Part shown: positions 1,882 through 57,120 of the stretch, piece after piece
Layout: each line of letters begins with the position of its first letter
Position numbering within the stretch: position 1 is the stretch's first letter
NCBI GenBank assembly: GCA_964016885.1
Contig: OZ024741.1
Coordinates: 92,380,001-92,444,000, forward strand
DNA: 64,000 nt
Source: Eledone cirrhosa
Lineage: Eukaryota
Reading direction: 5' to 3'
Position numbers and translations under genes: made by a program
The notes under the pieces: generated by a model
What the model was told of the DNA's origin: nothing
The model's database searches: none
Seen by the model: the letters and a program-made list of their open reading frames with translations, nothing else

Positions 1882-2080
1882 TGTACGTTATTCCGGGTTG
1901 AATCGGAGGTAACCACAGTAAGTAAGGTACTCAATACATAGCAGAGTATAACAGTTTTAATATAGATGAGATTCTACAGGACTAGAACTGTTTCATTCAT
2001 TAGAAATCATCAGGAATTCCTGATGATTTCTAATGAATGAAACAGTTCTAGTCCTGTAGAATCTCATCTATATTAAAACT
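1882..2080. mobile_element. Fold-back PLE pLTR fragment: perfect 128-bp palindrome (1953-2080) plus one-sided tail (1882-1952)
   Basis: Palindrome centred on GGAATTCC (2013-2020); same family at 55742-55803 and 56350-56536. Confidence 0.85.
2016..2062 (+). ncRNA. Hammerhead ribozyme motif (mirror copy on - strand 1971-2017)
   Basis: ATTC-CTGATGA-tTTCtaatGAAt-GAAA-CAG-ttctagtc-CTG-TA-GAAT: helices I, II, III and GUA triplet. Confidence 0.8.
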
Positions 2081-2183
2081 ATATAAATATATCTATAGTA
2101 ATAATAATAAAATTGAAGACTAAAATCCAGAGAGGGCTCGATAAGGAAAATATATATCAAATATATAAGAACCGAAGAGCAAA

Positions 2184-2311
2184 TATTTATTAAAATAACA
2201 GATTAAAGTTTAAGCAAAGAATCGTTGCTTTCACCCTTAACGGGATCTTCTGAAACTAACAAAGTCAATCTGTAAACTTTGCTTCAAATTTAATCTGTTA
2301 TTTTAATAAAT
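2184..2311. mobile_element. Inverted-repeat fragment of the terminal region of the PLE at 41.7-44.2 kb
   Basis: ATTTATTAAAATAACAGATTAAA...TTTAATCTGTTATTTTAATAAAT; 2184-2275 matches 41681-41770. Confidence 0.7.
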
Positions 2312-3038
2312 TCACATATATATATATATATATATATATATATATATATATATATATATATATATATATATACATATACATATATATATATACATATATA
2401 TATATACATATATATATATACATATATATATATACATATATATATATATATATATATATACACATTTATATATATATATACATATATATATATACATATA
2501 TATATATACATATATATATATATACATATATATATAACATATATATATATATACATATATATATATATGTACATATATATGTATATATATATATATATAT
2601 ATATATATATATATATATACATATATATATATATACATATAAATATATATATACATATATATATGTATATATAATTATACATATATATATATATATATAT
2701 ATACATATATACATATATATATATATACATATATATATATATATATATATATATATACACATATATATATTCATATATATATATATATATATACATATAT
2801 ATATATATATATATACACATATATATATTCATATATATATATATATATACATATATATATATATATATATACATATATATATATATATATATATACACAT
2901 ATATATATTCATTTATATATATATATATACATATATATATATATATACATATATATATATATATATATATATATATATATATATATATATATATATATAT
3001 ATATATATATATATATATATATATATATATATATATAT
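2312..3038. repeat. (TA)n microsatellite
   Basis: Direct. Confidence 0.97.
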
Positions 3039-3560
3039 CATGTCATGATGATAATTGTTTTTGAAATGCGCATAATAAAATACTTGGAACTCTTTTAACC
3101 ATCTTTTGATCTTATATTATTTATACTCCTGTCCTACAAACTGTAGAGTGCTACTTATCCGATATTTGCATTGCTTTATTGTGCTACTATAACACTCACC
3201 TCATACATATGTATATATATATATATGTATATATATATACATATATATATATATATATATATATATATATATTTATATATATATATATATATATATATAT
3301 ATATATATATATATATATATATATATATATATATATGTATACATATATATATATATATTAATACATATATATATATATATATATATATATATATACATAT
3401 GTATGAGGTGAGTGTTATTGTAGCACAATAAAGCAATGCAAATATCGGATAAGTACCACTCTACAGTTTGTAGGACAGGAGTATAAATAATATAAGATCA
3501 AAAGATGGTTAAGAGTTCCAAGTATTTTACTATGCGCATTTCAAAAACAGATATCATCAT
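3039..3560. repeat. Tail-to-tail inverted pair of family-A pLTR ends around a (TA)n tract (3210-3397)
   Basis: 3039-3210 is the reverse complement of 3397-3560 with few mismatches. Confidence 0.9.
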
Positions 3561-3593
3561 GAGATGATATCTGCGTTTTCATCAGATAAAATA
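3523..3593 (-). ncRNA. Hammerhead ribozyme motif (family A)
   Basis: Minus strand: TATTTTAT-CTGATGA-long helix II (gcagatatcatc/gatgatatctgt)-GAAA-TGCGCA-TA-GTAAAATA. Confidence 0.88.
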
Positions 3594-3629
3594 GTGATAC
3601 ATCATCTGAAGGTTAAAAAACACTTTTTA

Positions 3630-4924
3630 CTTTCTTAAATTGCAATTTAATTAACCTTAATATTATTAAGAACAATATACGTGATCTCTTTAAGCAACAT
3701 AACCTTAAAATCGAATTTGTTAACAACGTCAAACTAGCTAACTTCTTGGATATATCCCTTAATCTTGACACTGGCCTATATTACCCTTACCATAAAAATA
3801 ATGAGAAGCTAAATTATGTTGATTTTAAATGTAACCACCCCACTAACATTAAAAATGCTATAGTTAGTAATATTGGAAAAAAAAATATCAAACCTATCCT
3901 CTAATAAAAAATATCTTTGATGCTAACGCCAATTACTTTAATAATGTGCTTTCTAAAGCCGGTTATCCTGATAAAATTAAATACAGTAAAGAAACCAATC
4001 CTAGAAGGTCTTACAGTAAAATAATTAATTATGATCATTCCAATAACCTAAATAAAAGACCTAGATACAAAAATATAATCTGGTATAATGCTCCTTTCTC
4101 TATTTCTATTAATAATAATATTTCTAAACTATTCTTTAGGGCCTTAGATAAATGCTTCCCTCCCTCACATATCTATAGTAAAATCTTTAACAAACATACA
4201 ATACAATTTTCCTATTCTACCTCCTCCAACATCTCTAACATTATCTCTAAACACAACAATAAAATATTAAATATTAAATCACATCCTTCCAACACTGAAT
4301 GTCCTAATAATAGCAGTAGTGTTCCCGACGTCATTGTTAACTCTAGGCTAGATTCTGCAAACTCAAATACGACGTCAAACGTAACTTCGTTGAATGTTCA
4401 TAATACCAATCTAAATCAGGAAACTATTATTCCTATCGTAAATAACTTCTCCAATCCAATTCCTCCTATAGATAACACTAGGACACTTGTTAATAACTCT
4501 GTTAATTTCTCTAATCGCAATTGTAATTGCCCTGTTAAAACTAAATGTCCTCTTGAAAAAAACTTAGTCTATGAATGTAATGTTATAACTGATACCAATT
4601 CCTTTACCTATTTCGGTTCCACTTCCACCAGATTTTATAATCACAATTCGTCTTTTAAATACCAACTTAAAAGAACGAACAAAGCACTCTCAGAAATCAT
4701 ATAGTCCTTGAAAGACAAAAATATTAACTATAACATCTCTTAGAGGAAAGTTTGTTTTGCTTCTCCCTACTTGAATGCTTTCCCTATCCAGAACGTGTAA
4801 TCTTTGCTTATCTGAGAAATTTACCATTATATCTAATTTAGATTCTATAATAAATAGACGCACTGATTTATTTTCTCTCTGCTTGCATAAATTCCACAGA
4901 ACATTCCATAAAGTATACAGCTAA
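3630..4924 (+). pseudogene. 5'-truncated PLE ORF (RT C-term/thumb, CxC-x5-C linker, GIY-YIG endonuclease), Naiad-like; frameshifts and stops
   Basis: NFLDISLNLDTGLYYPYHK, NHP, IIWYNAPFS, KIFNKHTIQFSYS, NCNCPVKTKCPL, LVYEC...YFGSTS. Confidence 0.85.
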
Positions 4925-55243: not shown

Positions 55244-55301
55244 ATACCTGATGATGTCACCGGATTCATACTGAACCCGGTCATTGAAATGATCATAGTA
55301 T
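55244..55301 (+). ncRNA. Hammerhead ribozyme, inverted arm
   Basis: Same motif on + strand. Confidence 0.88.
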
Positions 55302-55377
55302 AATAAACCTTTCAAGGATTTACACCAGTCTAGCCTCCTGTTATTTTATTATATATATATATATATATATATATACA

Positions 55378-55682
55378 TGTGATTTACACCTAGAAAGTTG
55401 CTCTCCGAGGCAGGCAGAATTTCGGGAAAGGTTGTTTGTCGAAGACCAGCAGTTGCCCATGCATACCAGTCTCCCTCTCCACGTCACCGATGGTGTCCAA
55501 GGGAAAGTCAAAGGCCGATACAGCTTACCACCAGTATCGTAACAACTCATTTATACAGCTAAGTGAACAGGAGCAATGTGAATTAAAGTGCCTTACTCAA
55601 GAACACAACGCAAATCCGGGAATTGTACTCACTACTTCACAATTGTAAGCCCGACGCTCTAACCATTAAGCCACTAAGCCAT
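55378..55682 (-). mobile_element. tRNA-derived SINE (third family); related decayed copy at ~63055-63490 (+)
   Basis: Minus: GGCTTAGTGG...GGTTAGAGCGTCGGGCT (A-box-like), GCGTTGTGTTCTTGAGTAAGGCACTT. Confidence 0.7.
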
Positions 55683-56349
55683 ATGTGTATGTATATATAT
55701 ATATATATATATATATATATATATATATACATTAATATGTATTAATGATGATGATTTCTAAAGAATGAAACAGTTCTAGTCGTGTAGAATCTCATCTATA
55801 TTATATATATATATATATATATATATATATATATATATGAATAGAGTCCCTGATGACGTAAGGATTTCTCTATGGTTGCGTTGCGTAACTATATTTATTC
55901 CCTTACAGAAAGTAATTAGTTGGAGTGAAAATTTTAGTAAGTAAGTTAATTTTAATAATTTTCTTATTTTACGTCTTTCATATAATTGTTCTGCATCCCC
56001 TTGCATAGAACCGCAAAGTTACTAAGACATAACATATATATTTGCCAGCATAGGTATACATCTGTATACATATGTTGGTAGATATACTAATTCTTTATAT
56101 ATATATATATATATATATATATATATATATATATATATATATATATATATATATATATATATACATATATATATATATATGTATATATATATGTATATAT
56201 ATATATATATATATATATATGTATATATATGTATATATATATGTATATATATATATATATATATGTATATATATATATATATATATATATATATACATAT
56301 ATATATATATATATATATATATATATATATATATATATATATATATAAT

Positions 56350-56536
56350 AGAGATGACATTCTACAGGACTAGAACTGTTTCATTCTTTAGAAATCATCA
56401 TCATTAATATAGATGATTTCTAAAGAATGAAATAGTTCTAGTCCTGTAGAATCTCATCTATATTCAAACTTTTATACTCTGCTATGTATTGAGTATAGTT
56501 ACTGTGGTTACCTCCGATTCAACCCGGAATAACGTA
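56350..56536. mobile_element. Fold-back fragment of the 1882-2080 family, inversion at the HHR core, tail on right
   Basis: GAAATCATC-atcattaatata-GATGATTTC centre; 56455-56536 is the reverse complement of 1884-1970. Confidence 0.8.
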
Positions 56537-56562
56537 TATATATATATATATGTATATATATG

Positions 56563-57120
56563 TAGATAAATCTACCAAGAGTTTACGGTAGTGTCCAATC
56601 CGTATGAAGAACTCAATGTAGTCCGGATATCATGGAAAGAAGAGATGCAATGAAAAATCACTTTCGGTGAAAGATAAACGGAATACAGAGTCAAGATAAA
56701 ATATTAAAAAAATAATGAATAAAACAATGAAACAGTTCCTTATATTAAACAAAAAAAGTTCATTATTTAACGATCGTTTCTAGGATATATATGTGTTAGA
56801 ATTGGCATGCATATTCAACAGATCTATGTACAAAATTATACAAAATTATACAAACTATCAAAATTAAATATACATACCAAACACATATATATGCCGTCTT
56901 CAGAAATAATTTCTGAAGACGGCATATATATGTGTTTGGTATGTATATTTAATTTTGATAGTTTGTATAATTTTGTATAATTTTGTACATAGATCTGTTG
57001 AATATGCATGCCAATTCTAACACATATATATCCTAGAAACGATCATTAAATAATGAACTTTTTTTGTTTAATATAAGGAACTGTTTCATTGTTTTATTCA
57101 TTATTTTTTTAATATTTTAT
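56563..57120. mobile_element. 425-bp palindrome (56696-57120, centre 56908) plus one-sided tail; each arm holds an HHR with ~117-nt helix II insert
   Basis: ATTT-CTGAAGA-cggcATATATATGTGTT...AACACATATATATccta-GAAAC-GATC-GTT-AAAT (left arm intact; right arm has one G>A). Confidence 0.83.

What the first reader, a model, noticed from the sequence alone, without database searches (positions are those of the whole stretch)
1953..57120. Inversion/fold-back breakpoints cluster at the hammerhead
Seen: palindrome centres lie 3-5 nt 5' of CUGANGA (2016/2017; 56908). Junctions fall immediately before the core (48682/48683), inside the core (12334 = 14092; ~56405), in the helix II loop (12086), just 5' of helix I (45130) and in helix III ~10 nt from the predicted cut (55186). 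At least seven families are involved. Inference: the ribozyme fold or its cleavage dictates where reverse transcription stops and snaps back or switches template, generating bidirectional head-to-head HHR cassettes. Some arms differ by substitutions (e.g. ~57045, 12072), which argues against read chimeras.
Basis: partly seen in the sequence, partly recalled or inferred. Interest (0 to 1): 0.72.

Follow-up and report, generated by a model that had tools for sequence, protein, structure and literature searches.

The report
Penelope palindromes mark RNA start sites
These mirror-image DNA stubs are real head-to-head insertions of Penelope-type jumping genes whose junctions pile up at one spot per family, and that spot is likely the start of the element's RNA rather than its self-cutting ribozyme, which would help explain how this class builds its inverted ends.

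Summary
In 160 evenly spaced 10-kb genome stretches, 5' ends pile up sharply in three families: 26 of 36, 28 of 48 and 16 of 20 within 16 nt (p 0.0002 each). The peak lies at helix I in one, in the helix II loop in another, and 30-45 nt upstream of the core in the third. Without the first two families the hammerhead holds 20 of 103 ends against 28 expected. The three peaks have a sharp upstream edge, a TATA-like box about 30 nt upstream, an initiator-like word and sometimes an extra G, so they likely mark the capped RNA start. In about 10 of 25 unequal pairs each arm holds sequence the other lacks, which favours two separately primed cDNAs over fold-back. Palindromic copies fold as one hairpin, so they are unlikely two-way ribozyme cassettes. 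The layout is known; I did not find the start-site rule in print. No RNA data were available. This scan reached the same reading before, on other DNA of this and other genomes.

The parts
1885..1952 (-). Family B one-sided tail
1953..2080 (.). Family B perfect palindrome, centre 2016/2017; cores at 2020 (+) and 2013 (-); helix I 5' strand partly lost; arms start 2 nt inside the predicted RNA start
5433..7066 (-). Family A inverted short arm, starts at -1373 and carries the tail; hammerhead core at 5689
7067..10862 (+). Family A long arm without tail: broken PLE ORF (open stretches 7062-8771 and 9351-10409, the latter with RT-thumb-like and GIY-YIG-like parts) and pLTR; hammerhead core 10666, predicted cut after 10700; broad 5'-end zone near 10600
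11163..11378 (.).
11950..12143 (.). Family I stub: tail (about 11950-12029) plus 114-bp palindrome 12030-12143; centre in the helix II loop; no CUGANGA half
12185..12334 (-). Family J inverted arm starting at +4 of a U3-A8 core
12335..14245 (+). Family J main arm; U3-A8 core at 14088, GAAA at 14170; predicted RNA start near 14082
32724..33187 (.). Family D (tandem-array family) copy with junctions at 32850 (arms -147 and +44) and near 33090; core at 33007
44933..45133 (-). Family M copy starting at -15; core at 45118; partner arm not proven
48322..48552 (+). Family G copy that keeps the TATA-like box (48322), the predicted RNA start (48354) and a U3-A8-like core (48397) whose GAAA reads GCAA
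48608..48955 (.). Family A stub: inverted arm 48608-48682 (starts +123) joined to + arm 48683-48955 (starts -1, with tail)
49431..49865 (+). Family M longer copy; core at 49681
50812..55186 (-). Family C partial tandem (2077-bp unit); cores at 53149 and 51072; 5'-most unit starts at +40 (55186) and carries the tail
55187..55353 (+). Family C inverted arm starting near -61, without tail; core at 55248
56347..56533 (.). Second family B head-to-head stub, junction 56401-56411; + arm with tail
56569..57120 (.). Family H: tail (about 56569-56695) plus 425-bp palindrome centred on 56908; cores 56913 (+) and 56903 (-) with a 115-nt helix II; predicted RNA start at -7

Best explanation
These are head-to-head insertions of Penelope-like retrotransposon ends whose junctions cluster at one spot per family, likely because reverse transcriptase runs off the capped 5' end of RNA started at the pLTR's own promoter, and likely with the two arms copied separately from the two cut ends of the target and then joined. 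Shown: the clustering, its family-specific position, its sharp upstream edge, the one-sided tail, and pairs in which each arm has sequence the other lacks. Inferred: (1) the pLTR promoter (TATA-like box about 30 nt upstream, initiator-like word, CCAAT in B, G and H) starts short and long RNAs; (2) the endonuclease cuts both strands in (TA)n and each end primes cDNA, one at the tail end and one at the pLTR end; (3) copying ends at, or is trimmed back from, the RNA 5' end; (4) the two cDNA 3' ends are joined through 0-6 nt of self-complementary overlap or a short insert. The hammerhead is a neighbour: the start lies at the first base of helix I (B, H), inside helix II (I) or 40-120 nt upstream (G, A, C).
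For: Peaks: B 26 of 36 in -6..+9, I 28 of 48 in +37..+52, G 16 of 20 in -45..-30; p 0.0002 against uniform and exponential nulls. H: 15 of 27 distinct insertions end at -4..-15, 10 run past -150, 2 elsewhere (read by eye; the query began at -4). One-sided edge, counted as arm starts at -20..-5 versus -4..+11 of the proposed start: B 1 v 28 (n 41), I 3 v 52 (n 68), G 0 v 10 (n 26), H 5 v 23 (n 46). TATAWAWR mismatches at -33..-28: B 0, I 1, G 1 (empirical p 0.04-0.05 each); five families combined p 0.048. G precedes 6 of 6 B arms that start exactly at +1, where the parent has C or T; among non-inverted ends at +1 picked by eye, 5 of 11 have G (p 0.027 at 17% G, 0.11 at 25%). Tail on one arm only in 60 of 73 pairs; on the shorter arm in 10 of 25 unequal pairs (one row on each side is doubtful) and in 3 of 11 unequal family A search loci, including the window's 7066 and 55186 events. 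Of 46 near-symmetric junctions, 9 have overlap with a loop under 3 nt, 8 are blunt, 20 have inserts and 9 fit a hairpin primer. Arms match each other better than the median other copy in 17 of 20 (I), 6 of 7 (B) and 8 of 9 (G) pairs. Raw reads of three runs show opposite-strand joints at L189:5153-5160 (proposed start 5157), and contig depth in run X1 is about 19-fold higher just after the start than at the core. Literature: a PLE protein cuts and extends both strands, starts at two RNA sites that bound the tail, and does not need ribozyme cleavage (PMC11167929); the Penelope promoter lies in the pLTR (PMC2377424); full-length LINE-1 junctions carry a cap-derived G (PMC11702581).
Against: No RNA 5'-end data were used, so the start sites are predicted only. 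H and A have no TATA match (3 and 5 mismatches), the start positions were picked after seeing the peaks, and the genome is AT-rich. Pooled over all arms, G before +1 (11 of 24) is not clearly above other positions (68 of 204 scored); H has G in 2 of 9 and many I arms have C. Ten of 13 families show no significant peak in the random sample (small numbers, mixed subfamilies, and some E0 'ends' at -132 to -139 were tail ends of inverted arms, seen). The tail is on the longer arm in 15 of 25 pairs, which fold-back also allows. The commonest I centre in the search loci lies 4 nt inside the proposed start, which the model does not explain. The read-depth step in the RAD runs coincides with a cut site at 5164 and is not counted; X1 may be the assembly's own sample.
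Confidence: 0.68

Rival explanations
1. Same RNA start site, but the second arm is made by snap-back: the cDNA 3' end, sometimes through the cap-templated C, pairs with itself and is extended.
For: 9 of 46 near-symmetric junctions have overlap and a loop of 3 nt or more; some B junctions read as a 4-bp stem closed by the extra base around a 5-nt loop (L177, L244); snap-back after full-length cDNA is reported for R2 proteins (PMC11371274); self-priming was proposed for PLE palindromes (PMC3846280).
Against: Cannot give pairs in which the shorter arm alone has the tail (10 of 25 and 3 of 11), nor 0-2-nt loops from templated bases (9 of 46), and does not explain why the tail-less arm stops at the fixed pLTR end.
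Confidence: 0.15
2. One reading: the hammerhead fold or its cleavage stops reverse transcriptase and triggers the turn.
For: All 37 inverted events of B and I have an end in the footprint; pooled enrichment 97 of 187 against 58; a few partner arms start near the cut in E0, K5, C and A.
Against: G peaks 30-45 nt upstream with 0 of 20 ends in the motif; families other than B and I give 20 of 103 against 28.2; cut +/-3 nt gives 7 against 4.1. The B, H and I peaks lie 5' of strands the enzyme has already displaced, not at the 3' foot of a helix (inference from the folds). Ribozyme mutants insert normally in vitro (PMC11167929).
Confidence: 0.1
3. The short palindromes are self-spreading non-autonomous units, so the clusters are a few founder events copied many times.
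For: 40 of 40 scored places share the 2016 centre; 12 of the 22 family I search junctions share one blunt centre.
Against: Both searches used queries containing the centre. In the random sample junction strings are almost all distinct (25 of 26, 12 of 12, 10 of 10). The shared I centre occurs on two variant backgrounds mirrored in both arms, one of them matching non-palindromic parents.
Confidence: 0.05
4. Assembly or read chimeras.
For: No raw read was shown to span the window's own palindromes (one search was uninformative).
Against: Recurrence on many chromosomes with (TA)n flanks and a one-sided tail, arm substitutions, and inversion joints in raw reads of three runs.
Confidence: 0.02

Closest known systems
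Endonuclease-bearing Penelope-like elements with inverted pLTR, palindromic junction and one-sided tail (Adineta vaga Pen2/Pen2a/Pen3a, PMC3846280; general layout, PMC8557442)
   Same: Head-to-head inverted 5'-truncated copy, palindrome at the junction, tail on one end, partial tandems, AT-rich targets, TATA and initiator-like motifs in the pLTR, asparagine-rich ORF stretches.
   Different: Here the junctions are counted genome-wide and peak at a predicted RNA start; tails are about 55-140 nt rather than 30-40; the data favour two primed cDNAs on sense RNA, whereas PMC3846280 proposed self-priming on an antisense template.
PLE hammerheads (PMC4209133)
   Same: Type I motifs in pLTRs with short palindromic helix III, enlarged helix II, a U3-A8 core variant, and pairs on opposite strands 100-700 bp apart.
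   Different: That paper, in the passages seen, does not map inversion points. Here the predicted promoter of family I lies inside helix II, so RNA started there would lack the CUGANGA half.
Anolis Poseidon (PAc) in vitro reaction (PMC11167929)
   Same: Two internal RT start sites bounding the tail, cutting and extension of both target strands, uncleaved RNA as template.
   Different: It did not address inverted junctions or RNA 5' ends in the parts read (parts 1-2 of 4).
LINE-1 full-length 5' junctions with cap G (PMC11702581) and R2 cDNA snap-back (PMC11371274)
   Same: Events at the end of cDNA synthesis; extra G; antisense sequence at the 5' junction.
   Different: Both arms here include the element's 3' end. 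LINE-1 twin-priming inversions have non-overlapping arms (recalled, not from a call).

Membership tests
EN+ Penelope-like element (family A) | Single ORF with PLE-type RT and C-terminal GIY-YIG endonuclease | tested here: inconclusive
   The window copy is broken and has no Pfam hit. Its C-terminal stretch has 17 longer homologues at E <= 1e-10, the best named an RT-domain protein, and look-alikes with HTH_animal and GIY-YIG. GIY-YIG-like, Cys-His and DKSG motifs were read by eye. No RT tree was built. A second family shows a sub-threshold GIY-YIG hit at 15684-16181 (E 0.0038).
EN+ Penelope-like element | pLTR from partial tandem and/or inverted 5'-truncated copy | tested here: met
   Inverted arms in A, B, C, G, H, I and J; 2077-bp tandem in C.
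EN+ Penelope-like element | Tail present at one end only | tested here: met
   60 of 73 pairs.
EN+ Penelope-like element | Insertion into (TA)n or AT-rich targets | tested here: met
   Flanks of L001-L010, L111-L140 and arm ends; not counted against a null.
EN+ Penelope-like element | Hammerhead motif in the pLTR | tested here: met
   171 hits against 2 in shuffled DNA; the I, J and G variants were read by eye from parents. No hammerhead family was among the 150 of 246 Rfam rows shown.
PLE clade (Neptune versus Hydra and others) | Linker Zn-finger, CCHH motif and RT phylogeny as in PMC8557442 | tested here: inconclusive
   Family A shows a CX4CxxC linker and Cys/His residues around GIY-YIG, which fits Neptune and not Hydra by the paper's text; other families were not tested and no tree was built.
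Active type I hammerhead ribozyme | Self-cleavage at the predicted site | not testable with these tools
   Needs an in vitro assay. Palindromic copies fold as single hairpins (-102.5 and -110.1 kcal/mol); three monomer motifs fold no better than shuffles (z -0.3 to -1.8).
RNA polymerase II core promoter | TATA box about 30 nt upstream and initiator at the start | tested here: inconclusive
   Met in B, I and G, not met for TATA in H and A; consensus motifs are recalled; positions were chosen after seeing the peaks.
RNA polymerase II core promoter | Capped RNA 5' ends at the site | not testable with these tools
   Needs RNA 5'-end data; only the indirect extra-G signal was scored.
Non-LTR retrozyme (family D only) | Tandem units each with a type I hammerhead | tested here: met
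   422-bp array at 17103-19986 with descriptor hits in 3 of its roughly 7 units; definition from bioRxiv 10.64898/2026.07.22.740005. Not part of the cited junctions.

The most novel reading that the evidence does not exclude
Penelope-like elements insert by priming both cut target ends on RNA from the pLTR promoter, so genomic stubs are a fossil map of their transcription starts. Several families place that start at the first base of, or inside, their hammerhead, so freshly started RNA carries a ribozyme at its very 5' end or only half of one, and only read-through RNA carries the whole motif: a promoter-ribozyme overlap that would control which transcripts can be cut.
Probability: 0.35. Interest if true: 0.65.

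Novelty: new member of a known kind. Interest (0 to 1): 0.42.

Why it matters
How Penelope-like elements build inverted ends, and what their hammerheads do, are stated as open in the papers read (PMC8557442, PMC11167929). The junction map gives exact, testable predictions: RNA start positions for four families and a two-primer insertion step that the existing in vitro system could test. It also argues against reading these palindromes as two-way ribozyme devices. The elements and their layout are a known class, and the mechanism remains inferred from DNA.

Tried and rejected
Rfam scan: among the 150 of 246 rows shown there were only hairpin or microsatellite matches below gathering scores and no hammerhead family. 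Pfam found nothing for the family A, J and 3871-4701 ORFs; the Atlas look-up of 7062-8768 was weak. Genome searches with three hammerhead-downstream queries returned nothing because common words are skipped, so B, G and H have no unbiased search set; B and G rest on the random sample. Sequencing-run search: no RNA holder listed, which is no evidence on expression. Reads laid on 1885-2180 were uninformative for the centre, because the reduced-representation reads end at 2018, inside a restriction-type word at the centre. The 20-40-fold raw-read depth step on the family I parent was rejected because reads end at 5164. My first reading, that the 2016 and 12086 palindromes are single amplified founder events, was dropped. 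A first mapping with untrimmed references counted neighbouring repeats and was discarded for statistics (redone); one script timed out. Rows dropped before the counts: window copies, copies under 82% identity, ends within 26 nt of the pLTR end (A beyond +135, H beyond +160, E0 beyond +62), two low-complexity H hits, ends upstream of -150 or at a reference or locus edge; tandem families T2, T8 and T9 and the sparse K16, K17 and M were not tested. The split into families with the peak in or out of the motif was made after seeing the data. Cut-site starts could not be tested in B and I, nor in the C, J and M search sets.
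Full report
Setting. The window lies at G000:C2:92.38 Mb in a 3.0-Gb animal assembly; the best protein homologue is named from Octopus vulgaris, so the host is likely an octopus. It is dense with (TA)n tracts and dispersed repeats. Positions below are relative to hammerhead core position 3 (= 0); family letters are mine.

Hammerheads. A type I descriptor of my own gave 12 window hits against 0 in five shuffles. 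A wider version gave 20 window hits, and 171 hits in 160 evenly spaced 10-kb stretches against 2 in shuffled DNA. Families I, J and G carry U3-A8-type cores that I read by eye from parent copies; the young G copies have GCAA in place of GAAA. Activity was not testable.

The cited coordinates. All eight are as described, with two limits: 45133 is a 5' end whose partner arm I could not prove, and at 48682 and 55186 only one of two ends is in the motif.

Genome test. Mapping the 1.6-Mb sample to family references gave 276 events, 86 of them inverted. Three families have sharp peaks: B 26 of 36 in -6..+9, I 28 of 48 in +37..+52, and G 16 of 20 in -45..-30 (p 0.0002 under uniform and exponential nulls). 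The other ten show no significant peak at this depth. Pooled, 97 of 187 ends fall in the hammerhead footprint against 58 expected; without B and I it is 20 of 103 against 28.2. Among inverted events, 37 of 37 in B and I but 15 of 47 in the others have an end in the footprint. Ends within 3 nt of the cut number 7 against 4.1 expected where testable. Search-derived loci add: H, 15 of 27 insertions end at -4..-15 and 10 run past -150 (by eye); A, of 30 loci many start between -40 and -100; J, 4 of 14 start at -13..+8 and 10 run past -250; C, 9 of 13 matched arms start at -53..-115; M, 13 loci are scattered. Junction strings are nearly all distinct in the random sample, so these are repeated events. 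The 40 of 40 identical centres for 2016 come from a query that contained the centre.

What lies at the peaks. The peaks sit on different parts of the ribozyme but on similar DNA. Parents of B, I and G have a TATA-like box at -33..-28 (0, 1 and 1 mismatches) and an initiator-like pyrimidine-A word at the edge; B, G and H have CCAAT 74-100 nt upstream; H and A lack the TATA match. Arm starts fall off sharply upstream of the edge: 1 v 28, 3 v 52, 0 v 10 and 5 v 23 for B, I, G and H. All 6 B arms that start exactly at +1 are preceded by G where the parent has C or T; over families, 5 of 11 non-inverted ends at +1 have G (p 0.027 to 0.11), which is suggestive only, and the pooled rate over all arms is 11 of 24 against 68 of 204 elsewhere. 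Raw reads of runs X22-X24 laid on a family I parent show opposite-strand joints with one end at 5153-5160, the proposed start being 5157, most with 1-3 read starts; contig depth in X1 is about 19-fold higher just after the start than at the core. I infer that the peaks are capped RNA starts. No RNA 5' ends were seen.

How the second arm is made. Notes from this scan suggested separate priming, and I tested it here. The tail is on one arm only in 60 of 73 pairs. In unequal pairs it is on the longer arm in 15 and on the shorter in 10; in family A search loci the split is 8 and 3. When the shorter arm alone has the tail, neither arm can be a copy of the other; the window's 7066 and 55186 events are of this kind. 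Of 46 near-symmetric junctions from the sample and the window, 9 overlap with a loop under 3 nt, 8 are blunt, 20 have inserts and 9 fit a hairpin primer (parent variants blur some rows). Arms resemble each other more than the median other copy in most pairs, which fits one RNA source. Two separately primed cDNAs joined at their 3' ends explain all classes; snap-back may make a minority.

Cassettes. The 2016 and 12086 palindromes fold as single hairpins. The first has lost part of helix I and the second has no CUGANGA half, so they are predicted to be inactive as ribozymes.

Comparison with print. PMC3846280 (passages and the Discussion section read) describes inverted pLTRs, junction palindromes, tails and TATA/initiator motifs, and proposes antisense self-priming. 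PMC4209133 (passages) describes PLE hammerheads, U3-A8 cores and opposite-strand pairs. PMC8557442 (passages) gives the general layout and clades and calls the mechanism open. PMC11167929 (parts 1-2 of 4) shows two RT starts, extension of both strands and no need for cleavage. PMC2377424 (passages) places the promoter in the pLTR. PMC11702581 and PMC11371274 (passages) give the cap G and R2 snap-back. bioRxiv 10.64898/2026.07.22.740005 (part 1 of 5) defines retrozymes; PMC6962438 (passages) added nothing. Searches found no paper stating that PLE inversion points cluster at transcription starts or arise by two-ended priming. The library lacks most subscription papers, and no supplements were read.

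Earlier notes. Look-ups show that other agents reached the start-site reading on this and other genomes. These notes are unchecked and are not counted as support; my start-site reading was written down before I saw them.

Verdict. Interest 0.42.

Noticed in passing
window:17103-19986: 422-bp tandem array with hammerheads (family D, retrozyme-like); units carry an octamer-like ATGCAAAT word upstream of the core, recalled as a snRNA-promoter element. A longer array lies in L200.
   Followed up: partly
L204:938-1040; L189:5114-5215: In family I the TATA-like box overlaps the 5' strand of hammerhead helix II and the predicted start lies in its loop, so promoter and ribozyme share sequence.
   Followed up: partly
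window:10555-10615: Family A pLTR has ETS-, NRF1- and YY1-like words (recalled motifs) around its broad 5'-end zone instead of a TATA box.
   Followed up: no
L091, L173, L194 (family A, +128 to +149): A second small cluster of short family A head-to-head stubs near +145, far 3' of the hammerhead; unexplained.
   Followed up: no
window:48411-48430 and sister copies: Young family G copies read GCAA where the hammerhead needs GAAA, yet the family has near-identical copies, which suggests that cleavage is dispensable.
   Followed up: no
window:7490-7760: Asparagine-rich, CAA-repeat stretch in frame in the family A ORF, like the N-rich inserts described in Adineta PLEs.
   Followed up: no
window:16135-16526, 41045-41688, 50126-50381: An abundant short repeat with no hammerhead hit also forms inverted pairs and nests; not identified.
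   Followed up: no
window:34370-35326 (-): Open frame with C2H2 zinc-finger matches.
   Followed up: no
window:20501-21835 (-): RT-domain ORF (RVT_1, E 8.9e-22) with an 87% copy at 60433-61182; its family was not determined.
   Followed up: no
L080, L180, L128, L244: Junctions with two to three short templated repeats of the RNA-start region, suggesting repeated annealing and extension during joining.
   Followed up: partly
genome sample L071-L110, L141-L260: About 107 descriptor-positive hammerheads per Mb, which would extrapolate to roughly 300,000 in this genome.
   Followed up: no
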